Assembly: GCA_973895155.1 (NCBI GenBank)
Contig: OZ316897.1
Span: 21,551,455-21,615,454 of the forward strand
Length of the DNA stretch: 64,000 bases
Origin: Marsupella aquatica
Taxonomy: Eukaryota; Plantae; Marchantiophyta
Direction: 5' to 3'
A model generated the notes under the pieces. That model was not told where the DNA came from, ran no database searches, and saw only the letters and a program-made list of their open reading frames with translations. A program made the position numbers and the translations under genes. How positions within the stretch are numbered: the first letter of the stretch is position 1; each line of letters opens with the position of its first letter. Of this stretch, positions 13,420-56,289 are shown piece by piece.

Positions 13420-16364
13420 ACGAAAAATTCAGAAGCGAGCTCCCTACAACCCCATTTCGCAGTCTTGCCCACCCTCCTGGCGAATTTTGTTGGTGTTGAT
13501 GGCAGAGCTGGTCATTCCCTGAAAGCTACAGCAGCTTCCCGCGCTGTCGATCGAAGCACTAGTGGTATTTGACTCTTGCTGGTTGCCGTGTAAAACAGAC
13601 ACTACAGTACTGTCTACAGTAATTCTCTGCCACTAAAGTCAGTTGTCCGTGGCTTCTCAGTGTAGTGAAGTTTGCAAATGGATTGTGTTCGAGTTTTTGA
13701 AGCCCACTGAGCATTTACACAATGAAAGTGTTTTTCCCTTATGTTCTCCATTTGGAGGATTTCCCGAAAGGAGCCCAGCATACGAAGGAAAGGTACTAGT
13801 TGAGTAGAAAAATGGTTTTCAAATGGCCCGCCTGTTCATCCAAGCATCTAGTCAAACATGGTGGTCCATGGGAGCTTCAGTTTGGGGACGATTGTAGATA
13901 GTTTGTTTGCTGTGATTGTTGGAATTGTGTAGTCACCGCCGTGAGAACTAATTATATTCAGGGTTTCCTTAAATATATAACATGCCAAAGAACAAAAAGC
14001 ATAAAAGCATCAAACTGTGAAATTGGATCTGAAAGGCAAGAGACCCAATAAAGGGGGGAAAACCAAAGAAAAAAAACAACAAGAAAATGTGTCAAACAGC
14101 CCAAGAGTCCACTACAGTTGCAAAAGAACTAAAGCTTGGCAGAGCTCACAAGTAAATTCCACAGAAGGGTCATGAAGATGGAGGTCATGAAGATGTATCT
14201 GTCTAGAGTCCCTAAAACCAACACTCTGCCTACAAAAAATGACTGCACAAGCCCTTTGAAATGCCTCCCCTCGAAACACAAATAAAAAACAATAAAATAT
14301 AGGGTGAAGAGCTCCAAAACAATAAAATTAATCATTTGGGTAATAAGTAGCACATCCCTCCTCCTATGTTTAACATCAAGTAGATACTCTTTAACCCATG
14401 TAACACCTCTCTCATAGTTGACTGAGTTGCATCTCAAGTCAGGATCTTTTGTTGAATTACAAAACTTAAGTCTATGTTGCAGGACAGGTGCTAGGTAGAC
14501 CAAGTCTTTTTGGTGTGTCCAAATTCAATCAACTAGATCATTATTCTGTGGGGATGCTCTTGAAGCAAAGGAACTCATTAGAGCTTTATGTAGATGTTGC
14601 CAAGACCGCCTCATACCCTGGGTGGAGGCATTTGCTGCTCAATAACACTTTTGACCACATCACGCTCAATAAAACTTTTGTCAACATCAAATTACTTTGA
14701 GCAAGGGTGCCATGGGCCTCTATTGGAGAAGGCCAGAACCTTGCTGGTTGATCAGTTGAGTATGACTGTTAATGTCATGTTAAGACAAGTGGAACGTCAT
14801 CTTACAAATTTAATATCAGCAACAAGACTAGCACTTGACAATGTACAATGGAATGGTTTGATTCCTTTTTGGAACCACAGAGCACAACTACCATGTGGAC
14901 AAGCATCATGATAATTCCTTCTTCTTTTCAGTTCAGAACTTTATGTGGAGAATGGTCCTAAAATTGGATATGGAGTCATAGATCGGATTTAATATTTATA
15001 AAAATACTTAAAGTACATCACATATTTTCAAATATATACGAAAAACAGGTAAAGTTCAATCAGGAGGGGGGAAGGAATAAAGGAAATGACTGTAAATGAT
15101 TTTTTTTACTCGAGGGTCACAGGTATTTTGGGGTTACAATATGCCCAACAGAGATTTTGGACTACCCTACTCATGATAGATTTATTGGTATTTTGTATGT
15201 CTTCTTGTGCATATTGCACCCCCAAGAAGTAGTACATACCAATGTGAAAAGCAACCTTGCATAGGTTTAGCTATACTTCCAATTATTTGCATCCCTATCA
15301 TACCACCAAATATCATAGGCAGTGGTTGTCTGTGGCTCTTCAACAGGCCCAGGCTTTCACCTTACTTCGTAGGGCTGAGACAGTTGGTTTTAGGGTCTGG
15401 CTCCCGTCAGGTTCTGCTTTGGGACCTTCCTTTGCGATTTACTCCAGAGCTTTACCAGGATTTTCAGTTCTCCGCTCAGTAGGGTATTAGCTTTCATGAC
15501 TCCTTTCTAGGTTACTTTGTGTTGGTTCTTGGGTTATGGACCCCTTGTCATGTTTTTTCTTGGGGGCCTTTCCCCTCTTTTCCTCCCCTTTAGTGGGTTG
15601 CTTTGCCTTTGGGATCTTGTCTCCCCGTTTGGCATTTTTGCCCTTGGGCACTCTGTTATATATCATACCTTTCTTGTTTGGAACTCTGTTAATAGACCTC
15701 TAAGTGCAGTAGTTTTAAAATATGTTATGTTATCCACATGTACGAATGTTTAATTGTGGGTGTGATTGCTCATTTTATAATTATGATATGTTTTTGTAAG
15801 AAAGTGCGTCCTAATTTTGTATCCATCAAAGTTTGATTAGTTTGAAAGTTTTCCTTTTGCCTAATTTTAACCTTCTGAGTTAGAAAGTCCTTAGACGTAG
15901 TACATGCTTTCTCACCAACTTGTTAAGACTGATTCTTTAATGTGAAATGGGGATTAGAGCAAGCTCTGGTGGGGCCCATTGACTTTGACCAACTGGACGA
16001 CCTACAGCCTTCTTCTCAACATGGATAACCTAGGGAGTAATTAACTTAGGGTGCCTTTACAAGATATTGGGCCCATTGTGTTCATTTCCCAAAACTTTAG
16101 CTTAATCTATTAGCTAGGTATTCATAAATTCAACAAATATTTTATAATTTTGTGAATGTACTAGAGGAGTAGGTAAGGTAACCTTCCATAAGGTGATGGT
16201 GAATTGTTGGCCATTCTGAGATTTGTTTTCACAAATTGCAGATGTGGAAATTTCATTAGATATATTTTTCATTCTGTTAATAAGAAATATTTGCCTTGCT
16301 CGTGCAAAATTACAAATTATTTTAGGACTCGTCATCATCAAGATATGGGCCCCAACTACCATCC

Positions 16365-16948
16365 ATTTCTGTTGAAAAGCTATGGCCAAAAACCTTCCTC
16401 CATCCAATATGGAGGTCCATCCTGATTTCAATTTCTGTGAAAAAGCTATGGCCAAAAATCATCCTCCATCCAATATGGTGGTCCTGATTTCAATTTCTTT
16501 GAAAAAGCTATGGGAGCATTGTCTCCAATATGGTGGTCCATTCTGATTTCAATTACTTTGAAAAAGCTATGGGAGCAGTGTCTCCATATGGTGGTACATC
16601 CTGATTTCAATTTCTGTGAAAAAGCTATTGCCAAAAACCATCCTCCATCCATATGGTGATCCACCCTGATTTCAATTTCTTTGAAAAAACTATGGGAGCA
16701 GTGTCTCCATTATGGTGGTCCATCCTGATTTCAATTTCTTTGAAAAAGCTATGAGAGCAGTGTCTCCAATATGGTGGTCCATCCTGATTTCAATTTCTGT
16801 GAAAAAGCTATGGCCAAAATCCATCCTCCGTCCAATGTGGTGGTCCATCCTGATTTCCTTTATGTGAAAAAACTATGGGAGCAGCGTCTCCAATATGGTG
16901 GTCCATCCTGATTTCAATTTATGTGAAAAAGCTATGGCCAAAAACCAT
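16365..16948. repeat. Minisatellite: ~9 copies of a ~46-bp core separated by two spacer types (unit ~59-66 bp)
   Basis: Core AATATGGTGGTCCATCCTGATTTCAATTTCT(G/T)TGAAAAAGCTATGG; spacers CCAAAAACCATCCTCCATCC or GAGCAGTGTCTCC. Confidence 0.95.
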
Positions 16949-19900
16949 AGTCGAAGCTTTGAGACCCCCTACTACTCCTATGTGCTCAAATTGGAACTTT
17001 CGACAGAAGCTTCGACTCGCCCCCAACCCACTCCTGAACTGACAGGCGTGGACACTTTGGGGGCAGCAGCAGGAGGCCAATCCAATCACTGGCTCGCCTT
17101 TCTTTGACTTTCAGACCGACCGTCTCTCATCCTTTCGATGACACCAATGCGAAAATCAGCGGAGAGATTTCACAAGTACACCATAGAATCCCGATTTCCT
17201 GCACAGAATTGGGTTGTCATTGATGAGTACAGGACAGTATTGAGTACTGACTGACCTTGAAAGCGAAAGTGCCAGAGAACGAGAAGGAAGCTGGAAACAG
17301 GGATTTGCAATTTTGCATAGAATGAGCTCGTTGTAGAATAAAAAGTCCGGGAGGAAACCAGATCCGCCCACCAAGAAACGGAAAGCGAGCCCGCAGATAC
17401 ATGAACCCACATCGTCGAGGGGCGGCCAACCTGAGGTGGGTGGGACCTAAAAGGGGAGAAACCCCCGTGAAATTAGGGTGACCAGACCAAGCGAGACATG
17501 CTTTGGCGGACATACTTGAGATCCCGGCAGGAAAATTATGCCTTCGAGTAAAGTCAGACTCCGCTAAAGCTAACCACTATGGAAGTAGACAGACGGAGGG
17601 GCAATCGGGATCTCCAGTCTGTTGTCAACTTCTGTGGACATTACGTTGTTCTGTCAGAAGCCATAGCCATACTACACTGAGGATACCCTGTCTAATGCTG
17701 CGGCCACTCTAATCTAAAGGTGATTTCTCCCACGATACCAGGTTTTACTTTTGGTTTCGATAAGCCAGAGGTGTGATGATTTACGTCAGTATTCTGAGTT
17801 TCAGAGGCTTTAACAGTTTGGGGATTCCTTCCAAGGCTTCGGCTGTAAGTATTGTTGTAGTTTAGGGTTTTCATCTCAGGCCTTCCGAAGCGATGGTGGC
17901 CAGAGCACGGTGATGGGGAGTAGGTGTTCCAAGGAGGGAAGGGCCAGGGGGGCCCACGAGAGTCGCCGATTGATGAGAGAAAAGTAGTGGAACGGTCAGT
18001 CATTGCCGCGCTTTTTGATTGAAGTATTGGAGGAGTGGAACGAATAATAAATAAAGCGAAAGAAGTTCGAAATTGGAGGTCTGAGTTTAGTATTGAAGTC
18101 ACTGTACATGTACTGCTTGTCAGGATCACGCTGGTAGGTTACCGGGCAAACCAAACCAGATAACCATCTCCCATTTGCATTGCCAAGGACCCTTTCCCGA
18201 TTTGGCGCTTTTGTTCTTGGCAGCGTTAAATGTAACTTTCGTAGAGAACAGAGCTTGATTAGCCAGAGAGGGGGGAGGTTGACCAAAATTTACCCAGCCC
18301 AGAGGATGACGACACTGGGAACTCTATCAAGTGGTGTGACTTGATCCTGATGAAACCAAAGAATCCCTCATCCGACTCCAGCCCACATGGTATCGATAAG
18401 CCAGTCAGGGATTAAATATTGCGCACTGCATGAACCTAAGTGATGATATCATCATGGAGTACAACATCCCCTGTAGCTAAGCTCCAAAACTACACTGTAG
18501 CTGATTGGGTTTCGCTTCCAAAGGATACCGTCCCCAGTGAAATTTTAACTCCAGTGAGACCAGCGTCTGATATTAACATTATAGTATCGAGGTGAAGAGG
18601 AGATCAAACACACAATGAACCAACATCAAAACATAATCATGCGCCGGTCATGCTGTAATGGTTCTTGAGCCAAAAGGTAAAATATTTGCTCTCATTCAAT
18701 GGAATTTCCCAAGATGCAGTATCCTCTTCATTCACACGGCTTTGATGACGATTATACTCCTGAGTTCCCAATCGACAGGATAAGAGATTCAACAGAAGTC
18801 AGGATGTCGAAGGAAGAACTGTAAACATCGACGGTTCTTGCAGCCATCTCGCGGCCAGTAATTAATGTGAAGACATGACACACCAGTGGTGTAGACTGCA
18901 GATCTCCGTAGGCTGTCCCCACCAAGGCAGGCCCTCTGCACTGTGCAGCAAAAGGAAAGGTTTCAACCAGAAAGAAGATCACGAACAAGCTGGGCCACGA
19001 ACTATGCCCGGAAAGTGCGTGGATACGGAATAAGTGAATTTTAAGTATGGTGAAGATACCTGGTTGGCAGAGGTGGCGCCCACGCCGTCGTGTAGCACAC
19101 TTGTACATGCAAAGATGGCCAGGAACATCCTAAATATACGGATAGAAATGGAAGGAATTTACTGGATAGCATCAGAGGAAGCGGCACGACCATATCGAAG
19201 TCTCCGCATCATTCCCACAAGGAAAATGCCCATTAACCATTGGCCGCAAAAGCAGGCGCACATTAGATCGAGTAAAGCATGTCAGGGGCTTCGTCAGAAT
19301 CTAGAGAGTTCCACCTGGATCCACAGACCTGACTATCCTATCTGGGCAGACACTCACACACCCTCTGACATCGGCCAGCTTTAGAACGTAGCGAGGACTC
19401 TGAGGAACCGATATCGGACAAGGAGAACATGGAAGGCCTTCCGCGTGAAGTTCGCTTAGAAGGATAATGTAGGAATGGCCTGGGTTTCGTCAACCACAAC
19501 TCAAAACTTGGAACTAAATGTACCAGCACTGCAATGCAACGAACTTCAAGTTTATGCAATCGTCTACCGAATTCGGATTGCATCCAACCTTCGTTCGACA
19601 TTCCAGGATTGTGATGAAATTGGATCCTCGCCGAAATATCGCCGGGAATCTACAGAAAAACAACTTCGAAGACAGAATTTCAACTTCAACCACAGAAGGT
19701 GTTGTTCGTGGAGATACCCATACTGCATCGTGAGGTCTATGGATGTCGGAAAATGCTGATCAAACTGTCAGACTTCCCACTTTTTGCCAAGGTGTGCAAT
19801 GTACTGTACCTCAGTCCGCTTAGCCAACTGTCCGAGTGTGTAACAAGGTACATAGTTGCAACTGCAAGAGGGGCTATAGGGGAGAGCGTTCCAGTGTTTT

Positions 19901-27361: not shown

Positions 27362-28839
27362 GTGGACATGCGTGCTCCAGTGGAAAGGCACTGGAAGATT
27401 GAGGAGGGAATGGAACTACGGGATGATGGGTTGTACTTTGCATGCATCAAGTGCACCCTCCCTCATGACGAATTGACTTGGTTGCTGATGTTGCGTAACC
27501 AAGACCTGACATTCTACCCCATGGAGTCACCACAGGCACTCACATTGGAAGGGTTGGCCATGTACGTGAAAGAGGCCACCTCTGTGGTGCACATTTCCCT
27601 TGCATCCTTCAAGGACCCAATGCTCAGGGGTCTTGTTGGGAAGGTCCATCAATGAATACTCAGTCGGGTGCAATCAGGTATAATTATAGGGGAACACTTG
27701 GCCATTGCATTCGATATCAAGCAGCACCTTAAGCACACATACGGATCCCAAAGGCCACAAGCCTGGGGGGCTCATCCATTTTCTTGGGTCATTTCTCTTG
27801 AACAGGATGGAGGGACTCATCCCAGTTCCCGAACCAGAGGAAGGAGTATTGCCCTCCTTCCCCACAGTATTACAAAAGATTACCACCACCATCGTGCAAA
27901 ATTTGATCACGGATTCCACCAAGGAGCTGGCCACTAAGTCCATGGCGGAGGGGGCACCGGACAAAGAAGAGGATATGGATGAAGAGTTTACCATGCAGTC
28001 ATTGGAGTCCTTGATTGGTGATCCCGAGGAGCCCATTGTGTATGACATTCCAGAGGTATACTTGGCGGAATTGCAAGAGTACCATGATGCTATTAACGAG
28101 GGTTGGCAATTGTGCAAGGCCATGAAGGGGGCTCTGAGTAGGGCCAATGCTAAGGTGGCAACCTTGCAAGTCGGGCACAAGGCGCTGAAGGAGGTCATAC
28201 TGTCCAAGGAGGAGACTATTCAAGAGAGGAGTAGGTTGTTGAAGCAAGCCTATGACCAGGTTGGCCACTTGCAAGGAGCCCTGTCCACCAAGGCCAAGGA
28301 AGCCAAGGAAGTAGTTGCTTTGAGAAAGGAGCTGGTAACAATGAAGCAAGCCGAAAAGGGTGTGGATACCCTCAAAAAGTAGATTTCAGAGTTGTGTGAC
28401 CAGGTGAGTGCTTATGAGACAAGGGCCAAGAGAGCCGACGCCCTGAGTCTTGCGAAGAGGAAGAAGCCCTGTCCACCCGGTGTTACTCCCGTTGCTTCTC
28501 CAGATATGTTGGCCAAGGCCATTGATGCAGTGGTCATCAAAGTAACCAAGACTTACGGGCCAATGTTGGAAGCGGCCAAGAAGGACAAGGAGAAGTGCAA
28601 AAGCCTAGAGAGTAAGTTGAAGTCAACTCGCAAAGCACTACGGAAGGCAACGTCTGGCCAGGGACCCACTGGTATTTTACACTGTCTCCAACAATTACCA
28701 CTACCACCGTGTCATGCAGGATGAGAATGACTCCATCTGGCCAGAGGACATGATAGATTGCTTTGGAGTGGACAAGGAGGACATCACATCTTTGGGTGGA
28801 TCTGACGACCTAGATGTTTTAGTTGCTCTAGGGATTCAG
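27362..28839 (+). pseudogene. Disrupted coiled-coil-rich ORF upstream of, and possibly spliced to, the Kolobok-like transposase
   Basis: ORF pieces 27362-27655, 27705-28382, 28392-28724 and 28714-28839. An in-frame TAG at 28380 is followed by continued coding-like sequence (ISELCDQVSAYE). The region is K/E/L heptad-rich and ends at donor CAG|GTATGC (~28839), with acceptor TTGTAG at ~28928. Confidence 0.5.
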
Positions 28840-28928: not shown

Positions 28929-31014
28929 ACCTCAACCTCGGACTTTCATGTTCATGATGATGCACCATCCATCATTGAGGACTCTCAACCTTTACCAACT
29001 CAGGTCATGGATTCTCAAAGGGATGTAGTATTAGATTCTCAGCCTCCAATTGTCCCTCCTTCTGATGCAGATACTATTAGGACTAGATAATTTGCACCTC
29101 GTGTTCCTGCTAGAGTAGGGTTTTTGGAGCGGCATTTGATACATACTTTTGTAGACCAACTACTTCCTACATGCCATATATCGGGATGTCCTCTTACTCC
29201 TCGAGTAGAGCATATCCATGAGTTGCAGCAGCTATGGTCCATTTGGATTAGTCGTTGTGGTCAGGAAGGTCATGGGTGGACTTCCTTACTGGTGAGATGG
29301 AGCTAGGGAGGGGCACACCCATGATTACACCTATGTTATATCACTCCACGTTGTGCACCGGCTTGACATATACGGCATTGGCCTCAGACGCTTCACATTT
29401 AGGATTACATGCTCCTAGTCCACATCATTGGCATGATTTCCAAACTAGCCATGGACGATTTAGAGGAGGATGGATTGCGGCAGTGAAGGACCAGTGGGAG
29501 GCAGAGAAAAGGGCGTTGTGGCAAGTGTTGAACGATGGTCTACAACATAGGCGTGACCACGATCCCCATGAAGCAGGTTAGAGACAAGTTCATGGAAAAA
29601 CTTGAGTGTTGATTGTCATTATTTACTTAGGCAATATTATTTACTAAAGCAATATTATCTTGTGGGTTTTTACAGATCCAGGTCTAGTTGTGTATCTAGA
29701 TTGCAGATGGGACTCATCCAGGAGTGGTTATCATGACACTGTTTCCATCATCAATAATTATAGAGGATAATAGAGTCATAGAAATGGTAACTACTACTAG
29801 AAGGGAGGAGGCCAATTCATGGTACCATGAGGAGAGGGGAACCAGAAAGGCATTGGAGAGACTTTGAGATAACGGGATTGTGATCAAGGAGGCCATGCAT
29901 GACGATAATAGGATAGTGGATACCATTATTGATGACTTGGGGATCAAGAATCAGAAAGATATGTGGCACAAGGCCAAAAATTTGTGCAAAAAATTTGTAG
30001 CCACCTTTCTTATCAATGTGGATATTGATCTTGCCACAACCAGGTCTGAATTGACAACTGCCACTTGCAAGAATTTGCAAGATTGATTGAAAGCTCGCAA
30101 TGAGTACACGGGTTGCTCCAACTTGAGGAAGGATGCCTTAGTCCATAAGGTGGCAGATATTAGAGGATTGCCAATGGAGACATTGGTCCTTGTAGTGACT
30201 CGTGGATTGAAACATCTAGAGCTTGTGCAGCACAACATGTCAACCAAGTTGAAAACTTGGTTTTATGTTTGTTGTCGTCGTTGTAAAAATACGTAAGTAT
30301 ATTATACTTTTTTTCATTTGTATCGGATTATTTGTCAAGTAATATTTCACAAGGTTGTTGTCTTCTATGTTTAGTGTAGCAAAGGAAATATGGTCAATAT
30401 ATTTATTTATAGACGCTATTTTGTTGTGCAGAGGAGGGAATAGTGAGTCATTGGCCTATGAGCTAAGCAATTGTGCAGATCATTGGGCTGGTGTTCATAC
30501 AAAATGTCTAACATTGCCTAATCGACCATGCCATCACATTCATGAGGAGGGAGCTGCACAACTAGACTTATATTACAAGAGAGGTAAGAATGTAAATTGT
30601 AGGTTGTCTGTGAGTTGGTATTTTTCTGCGAATATTGACTAATAGCCACATAATTTGTTATGTATTACAGATTTGCCGACTCATGTTGCCATGAAGAATT
30701 TCATGTCAAAGTATATAAAGCCAACAAAGATGTCATTTTATACTATGGCTAGAGAAAATTTCATGTCAAAAACTTTCCATTCGGTGATGGGAAAATATGC
30801 CACAAAATGCATTCACTTTCCAGCATCTCACAAAGCACGATTATTTTGTGTTGGACTGGATTGGAATGAAAACATTCGGCGCCTTGTTTGGAAAGTGTAC
30901 AAGCGTGTGCCTGTCAACACTGTCGTTAGAGATAGGCATGCTTGGACTCGGGTCATGGTGGCACGGACCACTACTTGGAAGGACCAAATATCTGGACGTA
31001 TCTATGGAGTTTGA
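28929..31014 (+). pseudogene. Kolobok-type DDE transposase pseudogene, intron-containing
   Basis: Conceptual translation across frameshifts and introns (~29578-29675, ~30293-30432, ~30584-30670) gives a C..C/C..H Zn region (LLPTCHISGCPL..RCGQEGH), WIAAVKDQWEAEK, first Asp VVYLDCRWDSSRSGYH (~29699), EANSWYHEERGTRKAL, second Asp EAMHDDN, KDMWHKAK, and NFMSKTFHSVMGKYATKCIHF..RLFCVGLDWNEN (catalytic E appears mutated to K). These parallel the D.R.DSPG / S..ME.EG / TDRH / DVWH / TS..E.FH..HYNEN motifs of animal Kolobok transposases. Premature stops are present. Confidence 0.75.
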
Positions 31015-31620
31015 TATGAGGTGATGAAATATCTTATTTCTTAGCTAAGTTTGTGTATTACTGGAGTAATGTACTTGGTGATGGAATTATTTTCAAGTAG
31101 TCCAATATGTAATGTGCTAATTTGTTGTTGTGGTTGTCATGTGTATCATGCACACAGATATTGAAGATGATTGAAAACACTTCATAGGGACCATCCCACT
31201 TTGGGAGACATTTTGCCTAGCCAATTATTTTCTGTAGTACTTTGACCTACCTTAGTTACTTTTTGCCACAGTTTGGACTTATTGTAGGGTGACTTCAACT
31301 CATATTCACCTATATATGTACTTGGTAAATGACTTTTAGTACACTTTCATTTTGTTCCATTTGCACGATTTCTTGTCGGGTTATTGAAGACGTCTTAGAA
31401 GGTTTTATCTCTTTCATAATTTATTGGGTTTTATTGTTAACATAATTTTTTTTGGTAATGTTCAATGATCATATCTTTTTTAATTGTTGTTTTCTTCCTT
31501 CTTCCTTTTGGAGATGGAACTTGAAGGCTTTTACTGGCCAGCCAACTTGAGAATTTCAAAAAGCTATTTTTTATAGATAGGTATAAGTCCTGACAAAATG
31601 AGGGTATAAGGGTGCCTCGA

Positions 31621-32127
31621 TCAACCTACATTGGAGACCATGTTGCCTTGTACACACAAGATGGTCATGCTACTTAATATATACTTTTGAGCTATAAGAT
31701 TGCTCCATGCCACCGTACATGCCTGTGCAGAACATCTAATTTTCACATAGCCTACAAATTGTTCCCCCTCGTCATGCCAAGCCTCCTTGATGGCTTCCTC
31801 CACAAGTGCAGGTAGTCGGGTTCTCTCACCAAACCCACACGCCCAAGCCAAATGGGTGTAGACCTGAAACCTTTTTTTCTTGTTCACACTTTCCGTGAGA
31901 CTATAAGCAGCACACATCTGAAGATCCTCAAGTGGCATCGCTGGGTTCAACAACTCGTGACAATCTGCAATTGCCTTGAATAGTAAAGGCTGATCAAACT
32001 CAACCTCCAACAAGCAAGTCCATTGAGACAATTGAGTAGAACCATCGCTCCAGCTCAATAGATATGTCCCAAGGTCACGATCAATCAACGTCAAGGTGGC
32101 GGTGCTTCTTGGCAAATTATTGGCCAT
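31621..32127 (-). CDS. KolX-like protein copy 1 (P2X7 cytoplasmic-ballast-like C-terminal motif); open frame
   Basis: ATG at 32127. NKKKRFQVYTHLAWACGFGERTRLPALVEEAIKEAWHDEGEQFVGY parallels N..YR..AY..F..W..G.LG...R..IP.CV...IR..FP...G.Y.GF of KolX/P2X7 ballast. Confidence 0.65.
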   Translation of the reverse strand: MANNLPRSTATLTLIDRDLGTYLLSWSDGSTQLSQWTCLLEVEFDQPLLFKAIADCHELLNPAMPLEDLQMCAAYSLTESVNKKKRFQVYTHLAWACGFGERTRLPALVEEAIKEAWHDEGEQFVGYVKIRCSAQACTVAWSNLIAQKYILSSMTILCVQGNMVSNVG

Positions 32128-32254
32128 TCTACAAAACAAAAGACATACAAATATGGTAAATGAGTACACAATAACCATATAAAATGATGTGATATAATAT
32201 TCAGATGGACATTGAGGTTAGGGATGTTTATTGCTACAATGGGGTCTCCCTATA

Positions 32255-32644
32255 AATATCTAAGAGTGAATCCCCCAAAAGCTTCTTCTCTCATTGCCAA
32301 GTATTTCATATAGCCTCTTCTAAAGTATCCGGGAGCCTTCCTCTTGCACCCAAGTGACAAGCCTGAGCCACATAACTGTGAACTAATGCTCTCTTTTGAT
32401 GTGGTTCTTTTGCACACCAACTATACGCAGCCATCCGTAAGTATTCCTCAACACATATTATGGGGTTCAGGAGGTGGTGGCAATCCCGCACAACATTGCA
32501 AAACTCAGGAAAATTTGATTCAATGTCAGTCGTGGAAAAAAATTGATGTCCATTGGTGTTCATTGGGTGTTCCACCCACGTCACAATGTATGTGCCATTG
32601 TCAAGCATGTCTAGGGTGATGGCTTGCCTATTTTTACCTTCCAT
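32255..32644 (-). pseudogene. KolX-like protein copy 2, disrupted near the C-terminus
   Basis: MEGKNRQAITLDMLDNGTYIVTW..FPEFCNVVRDCHHLLNP..EEYLRMAAYS..QKRALVHSYVAQACHLGARGRLPDTLEEAI*NTWQ*..(frameshift)EAFGGF; collinear with copy 1. Confidence 0.65.
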
Positions 32645-32859
32645 ATATGCAGAGAAAATTATAGTAAGAATTATGAACCAGCTCAAAACCACATTGTCAT
32701 GTATATTCATAGAACTACAAAGTTAACACCAACATTGACCAATGCATGATGGATTTAGCCATGAAGTCTACATTATAGCAAAGCAACAAGTGATCATAAA
32801 AAAATTTTAAGTAACAAAATAGAATGCTACTTCAAATAACAGCAAAATCTCTAGTGGCC

Positions 32860-33249
32860 TAGTTTCTATTATTTTTCTTCACCCTCCCCGGGCCAAGTGG
32901 CAAGTATGACATCTTTCATGGGTCGGGGTAGGGTGTGTTTACTAGTCGATCCACAAACTGGGGCCAAGTGTGTAGACACTTGGAATCTCTTCCGACGCAT
33001 CAATCTCTCACAATAACTAAATGCAGCACATATCCAAAGGTCCTCCAAGGGAGCTATGAAACTCAGGGCAGTATGGTAGAACTAGATAACATTGCAAAAC
33101 TCAGGGAAATCTGACTGAATTTCTGCTAAGGTGGTTGTGCGCTCGATGAGGGGGGCATTAGAGGGAGCATTTAGCTCCCGCCAGCTCAAATGGTAAGACC
33201 CATGATTCAGGTCAATCATATTGACACGTACACCTCGCTTTGGATCCAT
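32860..33249 (-). pseudogene. KolX-like protein copy 3 with an internal stop; absent from the ORF track
   Basis: Hand translation from ATG 33249: MDPKRGVRVNMIDLNHGSYHLSW..FPEFCNVI*FYHTALSFIAPLEDLWICAAFSYCERLMRRKRFQVSTHLAPVCG..TLPRPMKDVILATWPGEGEE. Confidence 0.65.
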
Positions 33250-34724
33250 GTCGCTGCATTAGAACCAACAGTCATATCTGTATGTTCATATGTTAGACAT
33301 TGAGAAAAAAAATTAAAAGAGCCAAATAACTTTGACTTGAAATGCCTCCAAGACGGGAATATATGTGCATTCGTCTGTTAGTCATAGAGAGATTTTGACC
33401 AAAAATACTTGGGGCTGTAAGTGTGTTCATGAAATAACAAAACTTACTAATGAATAGGATAAACTTGAAGGTTTTTTTACAACTATTTGAAGGGGTCTAC
33501 ATTATGATGTGTTATTTGGTAAATGAATGACAATTAGTAAGTTAGAGATCATATAGTATGGACATAGTTACAGAAGGGTTGTAGAATTATAGACCCAATT
33601 ATTTGGAGGGTTGTCCAAGAGGGGTCTATATGTGTTCACCCTGACAACATGAAAAAACAAGTAAGTCGGATAAAAACAAGTAAGTCGGACAGATATATTT
33701 TCTCACATTCAGCTTAGTGGGGATGTATACTAAAGAGATATAGACCAATTGGTATGAAGGACCCAATTGAGGTGAAACTTTGGGAGAGGTCAACCGGTAC
33801 TATAAGCCTATGTGCCAACCTTCAAAATTGACAGAATGAGTGATTATATGATGGTTGGCAGGGAGAAGCATCCTACCTTGACTGTCCTGTAGCGTTGTAA
33901 CTGCAGGATTTGTTCATGAGGTTTTTTCATATTCGGCACTAGCTTATTTCCGCAAAAGACAAATAGGTTAGTGCACTCTTTTTGAAGCTCAAGAAGGTCA
34001 GAGCTGTCTAGCTGGGCCGTGTAAAGCCAAGAAGAAAAGGCCGAGACACAAAGCTAGCTCGCAACATATACGAAGCTTTGCTCCGGGCTGTGGAAAGCAA
34101 CGCTCGACTTGTTCTAGAGAAATTGCTTCTTTCCCCGGATATTGATATCTCGTTGCAATCACTGGACAAATATCCAAAGCGTGTGATTGGTAGTCGGGAC
34201 GAGACTGTTTGGAAGAATACATTCCAAAATATAGATTCTCACCTTTTGCGGTTTGTCCCTGATCCAACAAAATTGGGAGAAAGTAATCCCAGACGTTCAT
34301 GCATGACCAGTCAGAGGAAAATGATGGGGCAGAGGGAAGAGCTTCAGAGAAAGAGGGTCGGAGAGGAGATGAAAATCAAAGCAAATGATCATGTCAGTAA
34401 TGGCAAAAATAATGGCGGCTCTACAATGTGCATGGGCCCTTCAAGCCAGAAGACTTTGTTCTCTCCCAACACGAAGAAGACCAGCAAGCTCGGAAAAAAA
34501 GGCACAATTTTGGTAGATTCATTTGTCTGTACGTAGTTTGTCTTCCCTCACTCCACACCCTCCTCAATTGGATCAGGTCATGCGAGGCAGCTATAGTCCT
34601 CATACCAGATAAAACTATTCAACTCACCCACCAAAGAATAATCTCCAAAGGCGGAAGTGCCGGATTCATGATGGCCAAGAAGAATCTCAGTTATTCACTG
34701 CAATCGAAACAGCCCCTTGGTCCA

Positions 34725-34820: not shown

Positions 34821-35875
34821 TAAATTGAACACCCACGATGGTCTCCAACCTTTCTATTCAATTTCAAGAAAGTTGTGTAACTTTGCGCCTAGCAAGAAGA
34901 AAGCAAGCATCATGGAAAGCTACGCAGTGAGCTTTCTTTTCTGGCTCCGGCCCTCATCGGAAGCCTTCTTATCCTGCTAATGTCTTTCCTTTGGATCAAA
35001 AAACTGAACGCAAAATACTCTAGAAAAAGAAAATCTAGGAAAAGCTAGAGTACTTTGAGCAACGGCGGCAGAGTTCGGGCCCCACATTGAAGAATACTTT
35101 GTGAGTACAAAGCAAAGGTGAAAGACCCCAAATAGCTAATCCTGAATCAGAGAGTGGCAACTGCAAGTTACCTGTAGAACAATGTTGACAAGCAGCGATG
35201 AAGGACCTTCCCTTGTGCAACTGATCCCGTCTAGTAAAATGTGACAATGCATACACAGCAAACAAAACATCATCGAGCACACAGAGATAACGAGAACACA
35301 CAGAGGAGACGAGTTGCTTTATACTTCACCTTTCTCTGTAGGGAACAAACGCCCTATCCAACAATCCACATAGATTGTATCGAGAGCGGACCAAAATAGA
35401 GAGCAGTCGCAAATCACAGACAATGCACACAGATCATATCGAGATATGGAACCAGACGATCAAGATGGAAGAGCGATCACGTCTTGCCTGGCCGCATGGA
35501 ATAAGGACGACCACTATAGATCAATTCTGGTATTCATGTGAGGCCGAAGGGACACGATGGAGGATGGCTGCCAAAGAGACCCGATGGAGGTGATGTGTGC
35601 CATTTGGTGGAGCCGGCTTCGCGCAAGCTCGAAGGGACAAGTTGCATAATTTTCTGTACATTTGTTTCAATCCTTTGGTTTCTTCACGATGGGATTGACA
35701 TTGTTTCCTGACAAGAGTGAGGACTTGTCGTGAAGGAGGACAACTGTTGTCGGCCAGGGCAGTCAACTTTGGGCAGAGAGGACGGGCCTGCGGGCAGATA
35801 CGGAGATACATACGGAGACAACAATAATGATTGCCGGATAGTCTCAGTGGCCTTTTATACTGGGAGTTGTGGTTT

Positions 35876-36220
35876 AATGAGGAAAACCCTATAACTGGGA
35901 TCAACTCAAGGAAAGATTTGATCACACAAAGACCATACACCTACCTAGAGCATGTCATGACTGGGTCAACCTCAGTGTCCAAGACCATATGTCTATAGTG
36001 AACTATAACAGCGAGCTATTCCGCATCACATCCCACTTGGCCCTATGCGGCAAACGTGTCAATGACAAAGAAAAGATAGAAAAGACACTATCTACCTCCA
36101 CTCGAGCAACATCATACTGTTGGCACAATATAGAAACATAAATTTCACAAAATATTTTGAACTTATAGTTCATATGTTACTAGCAGAAAGGCATCAGGAG
36201 TTATTATTGAAAAACTCACG
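35876..36220 (+). mobile_element. Ty1/copia (Bianca-like) gag fragment, C-terminal part
   Basis: NEENP..WDQLKERFDHTKTIHLPRACHDWVNLSVQD..NYNSELFRITSHLALCGKRVNDKEKIEKTLST, the characteristic Bianca gag motif. Confidence 0.8.
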
Positions 36221-41799: not shown

Positions 41800-44078
41800 A
41801 AACCTAATGCACATCCCCTTCAAAGTTTGGAATGAGATAGAACTTCACCATTTTAGCAAGATATGACGACAAATCAATGAGAGAAAAAAGTCTAGCGCAT
41901 CTTACAATTCCATATAATTATAGAAGATTTCTTTGTTGATGTGACAAACACTACACACTCACACATCCTCATGGCTAATGCTCCAACTCGCATAACTTTA
42001 TCAGATGAACCAATTGTAATCCAACAGCCTTGACAAAAATGAGGACAACTACCTAGCGCTACAGATAAATAGTCACGTAGATGCCAATTGGCTTCACCCA
42101 CTACATTGATAGACCCTTCTACTCCTAATGAAGAAATTTTGATACATTATCACTTTTCAATTTATATGATTTCTTTTGCCATTTTTCACAAGCTGAAAAT
42201 GAGACAAATGGATGTCGCAATGACATACCTTTATGAGATGTACACTTGATACGTGCATTTACATGCACGCCTTACCAGAATTAAAAGCATAACGATATCT
42301 TTTGGCTCAAAGAGCCACATCACACATTCTATATTTACAAAATTTTATTTCAAATTCATCTGAGCATACAAATCTCAATGTGTCATCTACATGTACCAAT
42401 AATGAAATTAATACTACACCTCAAGACACCATTGTGTAGTATTGCATGACATATTCACCGCGGACTAGCTATCCGCGTGTTGAAGGCCTTATATGGTTTG
42501 AAATAAAGTGGCAAAATATGGTAGATCAACGGTTTATTGATGATATGATTGCCATGGGCTTCTCCCATGATGCTATTGCACGGACCATGTTTGTTTATTA
42601 AACACACCAATGACAAATTTGTCATCATTGCCATTTATGTTGATGACTAAACTATTTTTGGTAAATACCCGAAGATACAATCAAAATACTAAAGACCACT
42701 TTTGAAATAAAAGATCTCGGTACCATTAAGTTTTGTATTGGTTTACAACTTGAAATATTACCCATTGGCATTTTATTGCATCAAACCACATACATTAAGA
42801 ACATCCTTAAACAATTTAATATGCAATTGCTTATCCTCGTACATCTCCAACGGTAGCACGCTCATTAGAGAACAATACAAATATTTTCTAGAAATGTGAA
42901 GAGGATGAACCCACAATAGGACCGAAGTCATACTCCATACCTTTCTTTAATAGGTGCATTCATGTATTTAGCAAACCAAACTAGTCCATATTTGTTTTTT
43001 GTAATTAACTTACTTACACGACACAGTGCTAATACCACTTTCAAACCCGCTTTCAGACATTGGAATGAAGCTAAACATTTATTCTGCTACCTTGCGGACA
43101 CACAGACACTAGATTATCCTATCCATTTCATACTACTCATGAACTTGTGGGATATGTGGATGCTGGGTATCTGTCCGATACCGACACTGCTAAATCTCAA
43201 ACAGGTTACGTCTCCCTTATAAGAGGCATTGCTTTTTCTTGGAAGAACGTTAAAACAGACCTTAACTCCAACTCCTCAAACCATTCAAAAATCCTAGCAC
43301 TACATGAGGCTAGTCAAGACATCGTATGGTTACGTTCGCTCATCAATCATATCCAAGTTAAATTTGGATTCGACCCACTAACCAAGCCTATTGATATTTT
43401 TGAAGACGATGCAACTTGCATCCAACAAATCACACGAGGATTTATAAAAGGCAGCCATGTGAGACTGTATATAGCACTGAAGTTCTTCTACACTTTCTCA
43501 CTCATGCACTACATGACAAAGAGCCCAATGTATTGTAGATACCGAGTCCCAAGAAATCTCGCGACAACTGAGCAAATCTCTTCACCAAATTGTTGATCCC
43601 TGTTGTTCATCAACAACATTGCCATACGGTTGGATTTCGAAGCTTACGATGATTGATGTGCGAGACATGATTAAAGATACTACTATTATTACTATCTGCC
43701 AATAATATTTTCATGGACACCATAACTAACATAGAAGCTACGTCAACAAGGAGGATTCTGAGGACTGTACTTTTTTTCCTTTAGAACCACATATTTATTT
43801 TTTCTATTGCACTAATAGATTTGCTAAAGGTTTTAACGAGGCAGTCCTCCTCACTTGTACTTATATATCATGTATTATCTCTAAACATGATATATCAAAT
43901 CTAGATCCAAAGTTTATTGTTTATATCTAGTCAGGGTCTAGGGCATATCCAAGGGGGGTGTTTTAACCATAATAGACTTAACCATGGTTACATAAACCAT
44001 ACATGTAACAATGAGACACATATATATAATCTTAAGCAATCGAATCTCAGTTGCCTAAGAATTCATTCTATTCTAACA
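41800..44078 (+). mobile_element. Bianca-like Ty1/copia 3' half: degenerate RT-RNaseH, PPT and a short 3' LTR (~43959-44078)
   Basis: MRQMDV..YLY, LKALYGLK*SG..W, IIAIYVDD, FEIKDLG..KFCIGLQ, IGAFMYLAN, GYVDAGYLSD..AKSQTGYV, SSNHSKILALHEAS and IFEDDATCIQQ. PPT CCAAGGGGGG is followed by TGTTTT...CTAACA. Confidence 0.9.
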
Positions 44079-51079: not shown

Positions 51080-51286
51080 GAGTTGTTCCTTGGTTTTCAT
51101 TAAACCACACCTGCCCCTATAAAGGGCTACGGTAACCCGTAGCTCGCATTCTAAAGAGTACAAGTTCAGAAACGTATTTTGAGCTGTTCCTTGGTTTTCA
51201 TTAAACCACACCTGCCCCTATAAAGGGCTACGGGTAACCCGTAGCTCGCATTCTAAAGAGTACAAGTTCAGAAACGTATTTTGAGC
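51080..51286. repeat. Near-perfect 101-bp tandem duplication
   Basis: TGTTCCTTGGTTTTCATTAAACCACACC...CAGAAACGTATTTTGAGC occurs twice, with a 1-nt indel. Confidence 0.95.
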
Positions 51287-52323
51287 TCCACAAAAAGTGC
51301 TGACTGCAAAACCTATTTTTACAAGTACTACACAAAAGGTGCCAAGTTTCCACCTTTAATGGTGAGTAATGAGACATGGAATGAGACTTTTATAGTGGCA
51401 GGTGTGATTTAATAACAGCACCTCTATTGTCTGGACGTTGGAGTTTCAGGCATAACAGTAGCTCTACTTCTGACTTGGAAAAACTGTTTTGCATGATTTA
51501 TTCTTCCGAATGTCATCTCTGCATTCTTTCTTGCCTCAAAATCTCATCTCAGCACTTGCATTCTTCAAAATCTCGGCTCTTATTGTTCCCTAGACACATG
51601 TGTTAATGGGGAGTATGTCCCTCGACTAATTGTTGACAATTAACTTCTTTCCAAAATGTATGTACCCATCTTCTATGAGAAGTAGTGGTCAAAATACCTG
51701 TAATAAAGCCTGAATTCTGTACTACCTCACGTCTCTTGACGTTTACATGAAGTTCAAACAACACGCTTTCCAAAAGATATCTACGTAAGTTGATACAGGG
51801 GTGTGTCTCAACTAGCGACTGAAAACTAGCGGAGCACCCTCTTCCGGAGATGTATCTCACCCACCCCAGATCTGCTTCTGCGATGATCATAAATTGCAAT
51901 ATGTGCCCAATGCTCATACTCTCCAATAAGAATGTTTTACACAGACAATTTCTGTGTGGAATAAAAGCTGGTGGATGCTACCCCTTTCCCAAAACCGATG
52001 ACCGCATTTTTCAAAATCTGAGCAGGGCCACTGCTCCCTCATTAAGGATTACACTTCGAGCACTTTCTCCATGCAATAACAGTTGTAACCTCTTGCTCTC
52101 AGTTACAACCAAAGTCTTGTACGTCGAACCCACGTATTACAGTGAGATCAGTGCTGCTTTTCTGCCGCATGCCTCATAACATATGAAACAAAATTTAAAG
52201 AAGAAAGTCGTATTCCTCTGCAGGTTTCTAACCATGTCAGCTACATGGTCCAAATCTGGTCAGCTCTAGGCAAAAGTGTCTTTGCCCAACCTCAGTTGGA
52301 AATGGTAATGCTGGAGACTACCA

Positions 52324-55300
52324 CTACTGTTTGCTTTTGTTGACACGCCAACCGTGTTGATCGGCAACTCGAGTGAAAGCCCTCTGTGCCTCCTCTTTCG
52401 AATATTCTTTCCCGACAGCCCTCATATCTATCCTTCCTTCCCCTTCGATAAACGCATTCACAATCTGGACCAAGACACTTTCAAAGGAAAACGATGGTAG
52501 CCACCCAGTGTTAGTCAGTAGCTCCATGCAGATGCTCCCACCAATTGTGACGTGCCCTGTGTGGAATAGGAACTTAGGGCTAACAACTCTGACAAATGGA
52601 GGTTCAAAGGGATACATTGCAGGAAAAGTGACTTCCAACAGAACAGAATATTCTGGCTGCTTCTTCAAAGTAGCCAGCTTTTGCAGGTCCTTGTATAGGT
52701 TAGCATAGCCCGTAAACAAATTTTGAGACAAAGTTACATGCCATATGTAAATATTGGTCTCGTTGGGAATTTCGACAGTGATGTTAGCCAGAAATGGCTG
52801 GGTGCCAAGACCACCGGATGCAGATGTTCCCTGCTTTGAATTCCGTATCTCTTTTTGAATGTTCTTCAACTCTTTTGCGATGGCCTGTGTTGCCACGGCT
52901 GACTCAGTTCGAGCTCCACGGGACGAAGATGTTCCCAGCTTTGACTGAACAGCCTCATATTGTACAGTCGCGAACTTTGCTGTGATGGCCGGAGTTACAG
53001 TGGCTGCCTCAATTCGAACTCCACTGGAAGAAGATGCTCCCTGCTTCGACTTTCCAGTCGCATTTTGTGAAGTCGTGAGCTGAGCCGTGATGGCCTGTGA
53101 TGCTGTAGCTGTAAATGAGGCCCTCGTGTGGTTCTCTCTTAACCTTTTTGAGTTGGGCGGCGCTGTATAACTGGATGTAGGAGACTCTCCCTCACTTCCA
53201 GGTGATGCATAGCAACTAGGCTCCGTAGTGGCAGGGTGTGCCAACTTCTTGTCCACAAGCTCGGTATCATTTTTGGGACAGGACACATCCCCTTTCATCC
53301 TGCAGAAGGCTGTCTTCCTTCGATCTACTAGAATCATCTGCTGCAGCTCCTGGTCTTCCGTTTTTAGTCTCTCATACTTCTCCCTCAAATCTATGCTCGG
53401 GGAATGCTGAGATGGAAAATTTTCTTCCAACATGCGCCCCCTGATACTGAGTCTTGAACTAGGATGTTTACAGGATTTATCCATCACTAACAAATAGCGC
53501 ACCGAGACGCTATCCTCCTCGCCAGGTGGGACAACAAGTATGTGATTATTTGCACGAAGAAGGGCCCGCCCGCTCTTTTCTGTAGTGGCCCCAGTAATTA
53601 CCTCGCAGATGGCTATCACTATCATTCCCTCCTTCAAGCTTCCGTTCTTCCAGGAAATATGTGAGATACTTTTGGCATATGAGAATGAAAGGGCAAAATT
53701 ATCCGCAAGATAGATCCCTTGACCAAATGCAGCTCCAGATGACATGTACTTGGTATTGCTCATTGGTCTTAGCCCATTCCTCAAAATGGAGTACCAATTC
53801 CCAGAACCACTTCCATGGAATGCGAAAAATGAACCTCTCTGTTTTCTGCGCTCATTGAATATTGCTTCTTTCTCAGGAGAGTCATGGATCACCACAAACT
53901 GGTATCTGGGATTGGCACAGAGTTTGAATTCTTCTTCCTCTTTCATGATACGAAGGGACAGCCTGTTTGTTGACAGAATGAACCTCATCAGCTCGTACGA
54001 AAGCCACATCTGACATTGCTCTGCCCTAGCTGGTGCATCCTTCTTCCTCCATATGGAGAAGGCCGCCTTTGATAGTTTTCTCTTCAGGGAATTTTCGTCA
54101 TCAGCACTCGCTTTCAGATCTGCTATGCTTGGTACAGCTTGCAGAATTTCCAACAGAAAAGTCTTGTTCTTTATCTCCTTTTTATCACCAAGTCTGTCTT
54201 GCAAGGTTGCAAGTCCTCCAGTTAAACTCTTTGCTACAACTGGGCTTGGGTTGTAAACTACAGGGTCTGATGAGCTGTTTAGCGTAAGACTTGTCTCCCC
54301 CTTCCTGGTAGTAACCTTTTTAGAGGTCTCAGAGAACCATCCGCTCCGTCCCCTCGATACGCCTTCTGTCAGGAAAAATGACGGGAAAGGCTCAAAAACA
54401 TCCCGGTCACTGGAGGCTGCTGCACATGCCAGAGACAACTCCAATTCAACCACCTCGGGCGATTCCTGAATTTCATGATGAATGGTTGCCCCCAACCCCA
54501 GCTCCTCGAAGTCATATAGACACAAATCGTTTTGGCAAGTTCTTAGGCGCCACACAGATGTAGGAAGTAAACTCCAGCAGACGGCACACCAACTAGGCAG
54601 TGTCCTCATCTGAGATCCAATAAAAGATATCAGACCAATCAATGGATTTTCTATCAAGGTAAAGCTCTCAAGAGCCGTATCCATGTAGTGATTTTTCCAA
54701 GGTCTTGGTCGAGGTTTGGCAGCAGTTTTTCCACTCCTGAAGTCGAAGAAAGCCTTGATCAGCTCAGGTATGAGTACAGTGGTACCATATGCGACAGTCC
54801 TTTGCCGTCCATGAAACTTCTTACATTCTGCCTCAAATTCGTCATCTGATACCAATTCCGTGAAGTCAGCCCAACTGGTTTCGACATCGGGGAGAAATTT
54901 GGCACATCTTCGCGTTTCAAGTCCCACAGCAACACGGTTCAATGTCAAAGGATGCCTCGAGATCCTTTCGACCCACAATTGCTTGTCAAACTCGAGAAAT
55001 ATTTGGATGGTTTTCGAGCATGGCAATCCAAGAGAAGCAGCTATTTTCACATCATTGACAAAGCCAACCACCTCAGCTTGTATCCGCACCTGGCACTGGT
55101 TAGACACAGCCGAGACTTTACAAAATTGCAAAATGTCGTCATCCACATACACAAGTTCTGCTGGACCTGGAAAGCTTGCTTTGACAGGTACATAAGGAAA
55201 AGACTCCACACTGCGATGCCGAGCTGCCTCACACCTCTCGCCGGCGTCTCTGATCACCTCATGAAGAAAGCCTTTGAAATGTCCCTCCAAATCATCCGAA

Positions 55301-55812: not shown

Positions 55813-56289
55813 GCTTACCAACCGTGCAATCTGTGACCAACAAATCTCCTGCAGTTCAACCTCTTTCCCACAGTTCACAGCAGAAGCGATCCCGCCCCCT
55901 GTGGCGTGACCAGCCTGTACCCCACCGGTCCAATATTGTGATGACTGTCCATCTTCGTACCCGTCGAACTCTCAAAATTGTTGCAGAAAATCCATCAACA
56001 AGCCGGCTCATCCGTTACTGCGGAGACGAACAATCAGATCCTACCTTCTCATCGTCAATTGAACCAAAGAGACTCATCCAGAGAATTCACCGGGAAAGTG
56101 CTACCAGATGAGGTCATGAGGAGTCTCAAATTCCATAGAGCAGGGATGGGTCAACTTCGCTTGATTGGGCTACACGTACGCTGGTCCCGCAGACGAAGAA
56201 GACTCGCAACATCAAGATCTCTGACCATGAACCAGATAGAGACCCATCTTCAGCAAAATCCATCTCAAACCCCTCAAACGTCTCCAATT

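What the first reader, a model, noticed from the sequence alone, without database searches (positions are those of the whole stretch)
31621..33249. Tandem array of three divergent KolX/P2X7-ballast-like genes lacking the zinc-cysteine cluster
Seen: three collinear ~115-130-aa paralogs spaced ~520-600 bp apart share a plan (..GTY.LSW..FPEF....DCH.LLNP..LE.L...AAYS....KRFQV..HLA..CG...R..LP..EEAI...W..EGE.F.G[YF]) but are strongly diverged, so the triplication is old. Known: Kolobok typically carries one KolX, related to the Zn- and GDP/GTP-binding cytoplasmic ballast of vertebrate P2X7. The CxCxxC..CC cluster is not visible here; a different, beta-like N-terminus replaces it. Inference: an expanded and remodelled accessory module, perhaps hetero-oligomeric, regulating transposition or countering silencing. 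This is the best candidate for an undescribed system in the window.
Basis: partly seen in the sequence, partly recalled or inferred. Interest (0 to 1): 0.82.

Follow-up and report, generated by a model that had tools for sequence, protein, structure and literature searches.

The report
Plant transposon with three ballast-like genes
A broken copy of a repeated jumping gene (Kolobok-like) in a plant, likely a liverwort, carries three old, diverged copies of a small helper gene distantly related to the "ballast" tail of the animal P2X7 receptor but without its zinc-binding cysteines; they likely act as protein-binding helpers of the element, which is untested.

Summary
The three minus-strand paralogs are real (33-38% identical, starts 605 and 517 bp apart). 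Related copies in public DNA runs lack the three stops, and one 12%-diverged contig carries A, B and the start of C, so the triplet is a family trait. All named relatives are liverwort proteins. The ballast link holds indirectly: a bridge protein matches C (E 3e-9), the family profile (97%) and Pfam P2RX7_C; fold matches to P2X7 residues 506-595 are weak (Z 4-6). The zinc cluster is gone and a predicted three-strand sheet replaces it; three of five rat GDP ligands are changed. A decayed gene with Kolobok DDE motifs faces the triplet; no element ends were found. Best reading: a Kolobok lineage with a triplicated, zinc-free KolX derivative, each copy perhaps spliced from one shared leader. Hetero-oligomer, GTP binding and anti-silencing are unsupported. 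Cysteine-poor KolX is already published for piggyBac. This scan noted single KolX genes in other genomes (diatom, oyster), not this family. New variant of a known kind; interest 0.45.

The parts
32869..33249 (-). Paralog A, KolX-derived gene, 126 codons; in-frame TAG at 33084-33082; ends after an acidic run, without the family's last F-x-G-F motif
   Evidence: other copies read CAG at the stop
32250..32644 (-). Paralog B, KolX-derived gene; TGA at 32308-32306 and 32293-32291, one-base gap near 32287
   Evidence: most laid depth of other copies shows sense codons, and an extra base at 32287 in 625 of 769 depth in X4 but only 52 of 236 in X3 and 12 of 43 in X1
31736..32127 (-). Paralog C, KolX-derived gene, open for 129 codons; frame slip in the last two codons gives a 39-residue tail ending at 31621
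   Evidence: family hits; model
32128..32160 (-). Predicted splice acceptor (T-rich tract plus TAG) one base before the start codon of C
   Evidence: sequence only, no RNA
32645..32675 (-). Acceptor-like T-rich tract before the start of B, ending CAT instead of CAG in this copy
   Evidence: weak, the AG is missing here
33250..33285 (-). Predicted splice acceptor (TGCAG) four bases before the start of A; another copy has a long T/C tract directly upstream
   Evidence: loose end at 33259 in X1
33440..33450 (-). Only donor-like site (GTAAGT) found in the 950 bases upstream of A; candidate end of a shared non-coding leader exon
   Evidence: inference
28929..31014 (+). Decayed, spliced Kolobok-type DDD/E transposase gene facing the triplet: first D 29690-29716, second D ~29898, DxWH 29958, WxxC 30258, zinc-finger H 30481, third acidic position ~30769 (K in this copy); stops and frameshifts; predicted introns 29578-29675, 30293-30431, 30585-30670 (approximate)
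   Evidence: against motifs printed in PMC9587614 Data S5; no Pfam hit
31015..31735 (.). AT-rich spacer between the converging genes with AATAAA-like hexamers on the minus strand

Best explanation
This is a broken copy of a repeated cut-and-paste transposon, likely of the Kolobok Kol0 type and likely in a liverwort, whose small helper gene (likely derived from KolX) was triplicated long ago and whose three products likely serve as zinc-free protein-binding helpers of the transposase. Shown: three paralogs, their breaks in this copy, sense codons and the same three-gene order in other copies, a facing gene with Kolobok DDE motifs in order, loss of the cysteine cluster, and selection on the proteins after duplication. 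Predicted: a three-strand N-terminus joined to the helical C-terminal half of the ballast fold. Inferred: a promoter in the element's right end makes one non-coding leader that is spliced to the acceptor in front of A, B or C, so that each transcript makes one small protein; each protein binds the transposase or a host tethering factor through the conserved R-F-x-V-Y and L-P...W...F-x-G-F surface, and the three have divided that job (partner, timing or target). They likely bind neither zinc nor GDP the way P2X7 does.
For: Paralogy and selection: (pN 0.40-0.43, pS 0.66-0.81). Family in liverworts. Ballast link: P0013 is hit by C at E 3.4e-9 among 1.84 billion proteins, by the family profile at 97.2%, E 3e-11, matches PF20478 at 45.9 bits against a cut-off of 23.5, and its only 4 PDB hits at E<=1 are P2X7 chains. 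Model pLDDT 85, strands 11-16, 21-27, 32-38; model residues 51-131 align to rat P2X7 506-595, rmsd about 3 A over 70 residues, top row Z 5.8. Other copies: all three stops read as sense codons in most laid depth, and X1 record 2 (1,689 bases, 104 other letters over about 830 aligned) spans A, B and the start of C with replaced spacers. Transposase motifs in order, each of four unique on the + strand of the window. Acceptor-like sites 1 and 4 bases before the starts of C and A. Two diverged Calypogeia members have accession numbers four apart on a contig of the same length, and three Riccia sorocarpa members lie within 25 locus tags. Transposase-accessory binding is reported for MuDR, PIF/Harbinger and CACTA (PMC12973397 passages).
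Against: None of the three copies, nor any liverwort member scanned, hits PF20478 directly (0 of 29 besides P0013). No fold match is significant: Foldseek E 0.4-1.4, and in the wide searches P2X7 ranks 16 and 10, below unrelated helical bundles. The transposase call rests on short motifs that I widened after seeing the window, so the 0 of 100 shuffle result is partly circular; it has no Pfam hit. No TTAA-flanked inverted ends were found. No single contig of another copy was seen to join the triplet to the transposase (tables cut). B lacks the acceptor AG in this copy. Among differences to other copies the excess of silent changes is marginal (12 of 26 against 29% expected, P 0.046; only 40 of 87 rows were shown). 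The function of KolX is not given in the passages read, so the helper role is by analogy.
Confidence: 0.55

Rival explanations
1. The three genes are kept mainly for dosage or as partly redundant spares: they do one job, and A and B are drifting under relaxed selection.
For: A ends before the last conserved motif, also in another copy (loose end at 32890); B departs from family consensus at R-F-x-V-Y; B has the longer end branch (1.16 against 0.61 for C).
Against: All three pairs show pN well below pS; coding parts stay alignable in other copies while spacers are replaced; 33-38% identity is far for simple spares.
Confidence: 0.2
2. The proteins counter host silencing or host defence, and the paralogs diversified in an arms race, as VANDAL accessory proteins do.
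For: Fast divergence and repeated copies are what conflict would give; VANDAL precedent (PMC12973397 passage); other elements of this genome are noted as carrying chromatin enzymes (unchecked scan notes).
Against: No chromatin, DNA-binding or enzymatic domain is seen; the beta-strand part has no characterised match.
Confidence: 0.12
3. A, B and C form one hetero-oligomer that binds GDP/GTP like the P2X7 ballast and switches transposition on or off.
For: R546 and Y550 equivalents are kept (33 and 40 of 44 rows) and R578 is K in 33 of 44; invertebrate ballast domains also keep only R546 and R578 (PMC7016195 section 11); P2X7 chains come three to an entry.
Against: H547 is F (32 of 44), R574 is E (29 of 44), K583 is D, S or E (34 of 44), which removes positive charge from the site; A lacks the C-terminal motif; Riccia fluitans members are named at scattered locus tags.
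Confidence: 0.08
4. The triplet is not part of the DDE element: it is a separate repeat or host gene family that happens to lie beside a transposase relic.
For: No ends found; depth between the two parts (31015-31615) is at single-contig level in 2 of 4 runs; no relative was fetched with its flanks.
Against: The pairing of a ballast-type gene with Kolobok-type DDE motifs is exactly the published Kol0 gene set; both parts are repeated and decayed alike; the same stretch is well above single-contig depth in the other 2 runs.
Confidence: 0.05

Closest known systems
Kolobok superfamily, Kol0 (Kolobok0) lineage, type Kolobok-1_XT, with accessory protein KolX (Kojima and Bao 2022, PMC9587614; passages, section 10 and parts of supplements read)
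   Same: DDD/E gene with DxWH signature and a zinc-finger stretch before the last acidic residue, plus a separate small gene of the ballast family.
   Different: Three accessory genes instead of one; no cysteine cluster; predicted beta-strand N-terminus; land-plant host, whereas the paper lists Kol0 from animals and Kolobok in plants only from a chlorophyte and rhodophytes; ends not found.
P2X7 cytoplasmic ballast / ZCD domain, Pfam PF20478, nanor-like proteins (Rump et al. 2020, PMC7016195; passages and section 11 read; PDB 6u9v, 6u9w)
   Same: Helical C-terminal half (rat 506-595) with R546, Y550, L569-P570, I577, R578 (as K), aromatic 581 and the closing aromatic-x-G-F pattern.
   Different: None of the zinc cysteines, including C572/C573, is kept; H547, R574 and K583 are changed; below the Pfam cut-off; small free-standing proteins.
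KolX-like proteins of piggyBac families piggyBac-2_GrCh and piggyBac-14_PI (PMC9587614 Data S6)
   Same: [quoted passage not shown]
   Different: They keep a CxxC-xxx-C stretch and one cysteine after the P; they sit in piggyBac, one per family listed; no tandem set is described.
Maize MuDR with MURB (PMC12973397, passages read)
   Same: A plant cut-and-paste element with a small second gene; a model for how the products may work (binding the transposase).
   Different: No sequence or fold link was tested or is implied; MULE superfamily; single accessory gene.

Membership tests
Kolobok superfamily | [quoted passage not shown] | tested here: met
   Motifs in order at 29690, 29898, 29958, 30769 against Data S5. 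Motif level only, patterns widened post hoc; the last E is K in this dead copy; no Pfam hit.
Kolobok superfamily | Zinc finger between DxxH and the last E | tested here: inconclusive
   H-W-x-G-x-H followed by C..C-H-H at about 30481-30550, matched by eye only.
Kolobok superfamily | RR..YY terminal inverted repeats and TTAA target duplication | tested here: inconclusive
   No convincing pair; the copy is decayed and bordered by another high-depth repeat near 28600, so ends may be lost.
Kolobok superfamily | Interspersed related copies | tested here: met
   Many contigs of 80-95% identity over both genes in 4 of 4 runs of 2 studies; depth is not a copy number.
Kol0 lineage | Second gene of the KolX/ballast family | tested here: met
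   By one bridge sequence and weak fold matches; three copies rather than one.
Kol0 lineage | Placement of the DDE core in the Kol0 clade | not testable with these tools
   No reference Kolobok transposase was available as a session sequence; homolog search with the last exon found none.
KolX / ZCD ballast domain (PF20478) | Seven zinc-binding cysteines in three clusters | tested here: not met
   No CxxC or CC in A, B, C; the C572/C573 positions hold no conserved cysteine. Seven of 44 family rows have a CxxC, three of them variants of an RxxC column, four in long N-terminal extensions.
KolX / ZCD ballast domain (PF20478) | Pfam PF20478 score above the curated cut-off | tested here: not met
   No hit for the three copies or 29 relatives; only P0013 passes.
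KolX / ZCD ballast domain (PF20478) | C-terminal motif (L/I/V)PSC(C/S)x3IRx2(F/Y)Px5Y(S/T)G and ballast helices | tested here: inconclusive
   Spacing and hydrophobic positions kept, cysteines lost; fold Z 4.2-5.8, within the range of common helical matches.
KolX / ZCD ballast domain (PF20478) | GDP site R546, H547, R574, R578, K583 of rat P2X7 | tested here: not met
   R kept, F, E, K, D/S/E at the five positions; binding itself not testable here.

The most novel reading that the evidence does not exclude
A liverwort Kolobok lineage rebuilt KolX into a zinc-free ballast protein with a new beta-strand head, triplicated it, and switches between the three through alternative splicing of one leader, giving the transposon a three-way choice of partner for targeting or counter-defence; it would also be the first characterised Kol0-type element and ballast-fold family in land plants.
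Probability: 0.2. Interest if true: 0.7.

Novelty: new variant of a known kind. Interest (0 to 1): 0.45.

Why it matters
KolX is the proposed source of the P2X7 ballast, and its job in the transposon is not given in the passages read. A natural family that dropped zinc and most of the GDP site yet stayed under selection points to what the core of the fold is for, and three paralogs in one element offer a built-in comparison. It also extends ballast-type transposon genes to liverworts; eight paper searches in an open-licence library turned up no description of them, but Repbase and subscription papers were not searchable. It remains a dead copy of a known kind of element with an unproven mechanism.

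Tried and rejected
No whole genome is held for the window, so copies could not be pulled out and aligned. Direct Pfam, PDB-sequence and Atlas searches with C or the family profile gave nothing; Pfam, Atlas and homolog searches with transposase pieces gave nothing. Two metagenome scans returned no confirmed locus (0 of 424 and 0 of 175 pattern matches). No RNA holder was listed. Complex prediction of C with B gave no answer (score 0.00 twice, alignments not used). Inverted-end searches found no TTAA-flanked pair. P0021 (1,082-residue repeat protein) among the 30 hits was dropped as unrelated; P0013 was left out of profile A2 so that it could serve as the test. The tree (36 rows; P0013, P0018, P0020, P0021, P0024, P0032, P0039-41, P0043 left out) puts A, B, C in one 14-row clade with Calypogeia proteins (100/98) but does not resolve their order. 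I considered that short C-termini in Calypogeia P0001 mirror paralog A; rejected, because its cluster mate P0042 looks like a frame-shifted full-length form. In one search two variants at the end of B were read in the wrong frame; one search gives the corrected counts. The paper search was uninformative (none of the 20 listed holds the word Kolobok); the Kolobok mentions in PMC8616336, PMC6337768 and PMC12973397 are passing. Figure S6 of PMC9587614 (the KolX alignment) is a picture and could not be read.

Full report
Observation. Three minus-strand genes lie head to tail: A 33249-32869, B 32644-~32250, C 32127-~31736, starts 605 and 517 bases apart. They are 33-38% identical over 112-120 codons with BLASTP E 8e-20 to 6e-25, and a family profile finds no fourth copy in the window. 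None has CxxC or CC.

Age and selection. Third codon positions are 33-44% identical and positions 1-2 are 53-62%; pN is 0.40-0.43 and pS 0.66-0.81, near or at saturation. So the proteins were under purifying selection long after they split. In a 36-row tree all three fall in one 14-row clade with four Calypogeia proteins (100/98), unresolved inside; C is 56% identical to a Calypogeia protein, more than to its neighbours.

Family. A search of 1.84 billion representatives gave 30 hits at E<=0.001; a word-index search added Riccia fluitans members. Of the 30 proteins looked up, those with an organism name are all liverwort (Calypogeia fissa, Riccia sorocarpa, R. fluitans); the rest are unnamed Logan or JGI records. 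The host is therefore likely a liverwort; this is an inference. Two diverged Calypogeia members have accessions CAM6099328 and CAM6099332 on a contig of the same length, and R1sor_013310, 013316 and 013335 are near each other, a hint that clusters occur elsewhere; the DNA between them was not seen.

Link to KolX and the ballast. Neither the three copies nor 29 relatives hit Pfam P2RX7_C. One hit, P0013, bridges: E 3.4e-9 to C, 97.2% and E 3e-11 to a profile built without it, PF20478 at 45.9 bits against 23.5, and P2X7 chains as its only 4 PDB hits at E<=1, best E 0.03. P0013 itself holds the motif twice. The model of C has pLDDT 85 with three strands (11-38) followed by helices. Residues 51-131 align to rat P2X7 506-595 at about 3 A over 70 residues: Z 5.8, first of 999 in the second look, but Z 4.2 and 4.4, ranks 16 and 10, in the wide searches; Foldseek E-values are 0.4-1.4, though P2X7 chains fill 6 of the top 10 rows for the trimmed domain. 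The fold evidence alone is not significant; with the sequence bridge in the same register it is persuasive. Using that register and the rat GDP ligands given in PMC7016195: R546 is R in 33 of 44 rows, H547 is F in 32, Y550 is Y in 40, R574 is E in 29, R578 is K in 33, K583 is D, S or E in 34, and C572/C573 are not cysteine columns. So these are KolX-derived, but fail the defining zinc test and should not be filed as KolX proper.

The neighbour. On the + strand, 28.9-31.0 kb holds a decayed spliced gene with, in order, a first-D motif at 29690, HDD at 29898, DxWHxxK at 29958, a W..C motif at 30258, a histidine-cysteine stretch at 30481 and FHS at about 30775, matching the Kol0 cores printed in Data S5 of PMC9587614. 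Four of these patterns occur once on the + strand of the window, and 0 of 100 shuffles give the ordered trio, but I widened the patterns after reading the window. The last acidic residue is K here, and there are stops and frameshifts. No Pfam hit and no homolog came up. No TTAA-flanked inverted ends were found. That Kol0 genes usually face each other is recalled and echoed in a scan note, not read in a paper.

Other copies. Four public runs of two studies, kept as contigs, carry many contigs of 80-95% identity over both parts. On 32090-33290 (three runs), the differing letter removes the stop in A (206 of 206 depth in X3, 418 of 418 in X4, 29 of 46 in X1) and both stops in B (384 of 436 and 350 of 350 in X3); the extra base at 32287 is common in X4 (625 of 769) but not in X3 or X1. 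One X1 contig of 1,689 bases with about 12% other letters spans A, B and the start of C with both spacers partly replaced; further contigs bridge each spacer. A stop in the transposase at 29865 is also absent from most laid depth in X3 and X4. Depth here is not a copy number. Of 26 coding differences among the 40 rows shown (87 in all), 12 are silent against 29% expected (P 0.046), 3 remove stops: weak support for selection among copies. No contig was seen joining the triplet to the transposase.

Expression. The spacers are only 135 and 222 bases. C starts one base after a T-rich tract ending TAG, A four bases after TGCAG (with a long pyrimidine tract in another copy), B after a T-rich tract ending CAT; an AATAAA lies between B and C, and the one donor-like site upstream of A is near 33448. 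Sites as strong as C's precede 0-3.5% of background positions, sites as weak as A's 7-20%. This fits one leader spliced to three alternative last exons, but it is a prediction without RNA.

Mechanism. Most likely (0.55) the three are zinc-free adaptor proteins that bind the transposase or a host tethering factor and have divided the work; binding of accessory proteins to transposases is reported for MuDR, PIF/Harbinger and CACTA (PMC12973397). Rivals: dosage or spares (0.2), counter-silencing (0.12), GDP-binding hetero-oligomer (0.08), unrelated neighbour (0.05). The identity of the locus (Kolobok-like element with KolX-derived triplet) I put near 0.85; the function is inference.

What is known. 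PMC9587614 (passages, section 10, supplement search, file 3 part 106, file 2 part 7) defines Kol0 as transposase plus one KolX, lists Kol0 from animals and Kolobok in plants from a chlorophyte and rhodophytes, and reports piggyBac KolX-like proteins lacking most cysteines; its supplements do not hold the words Marchantia, Physcomit or Selaginella, and Figure S6 could not be read. PMC7016195 (passages, section 11) treats the domain across animals. PMC6004289, PMC8616336, PMC6337768 and PMC12973397 were seen as passages. Eight searches found no account of liverwort Kolobok or of several KolX genes in one element; Repbase was not searchable. The scan has no note on this family in this genome or on look-alikes and has noted single KolX genes in a diatom and an oyster.

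Verdict. A real feature, partly misdescribed: a dead copy of a liverwort-type Kolobok-like element with an old, selected triplet of zinc-free KolX derivatives. New variant of a known kind; interest 0.45.

Noticed in passing
window 52327-55971 (-): An uninterrupted 1,215-codon frame with a PARP catalytic domain (PF00644, E 4e-13) and a C-terminal ubiquitin-conjugating domain (PF00179, E 5e-9); long and without introns.
   Followed up: partly
window 28010-28610: Depth far above the rest in all four runs, with loose ends at 28267 and 28595: a piece of another, very abundant repeat that encodes a coiled-coil-like frame (27690-28724) and abuts the 5' part of the transposase relic.
   Followed up: no
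window 35881-36141 (+) and 43075-43593 (+): Copia-type gag fragment (PF14223, E 4.5e-4, below cut-off) and a frame that looks by eye like copia RNase H (recalled motif, no Pfam hit).
   Followed up: partly
window 16337-16970: Tandem array of 58-66 and 121-124-base units, seven copies of an 82-base core.
   Followed up: no
window 6910-7582: Three copies of a unit of about 220 bases.
   Followed up: no
window 9362-9811 (+): Exon of a cupin (PF06172, DUF985) gene.
   Followed up: partly
protein P0013 (unnamed JGI record): A 133-residue protein with two tandem copies of the ballast C-terminal motif and a CxxC-xxx-C stretch: multiplication of the module within one chain in another organism.
   Followed up: partly
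window 51080-51287 and 35847-35880: A near-perfect 101-base tandem duplication whose core is 82% complementary over 34 bases to a site 15 kb away.
   Followed up: no
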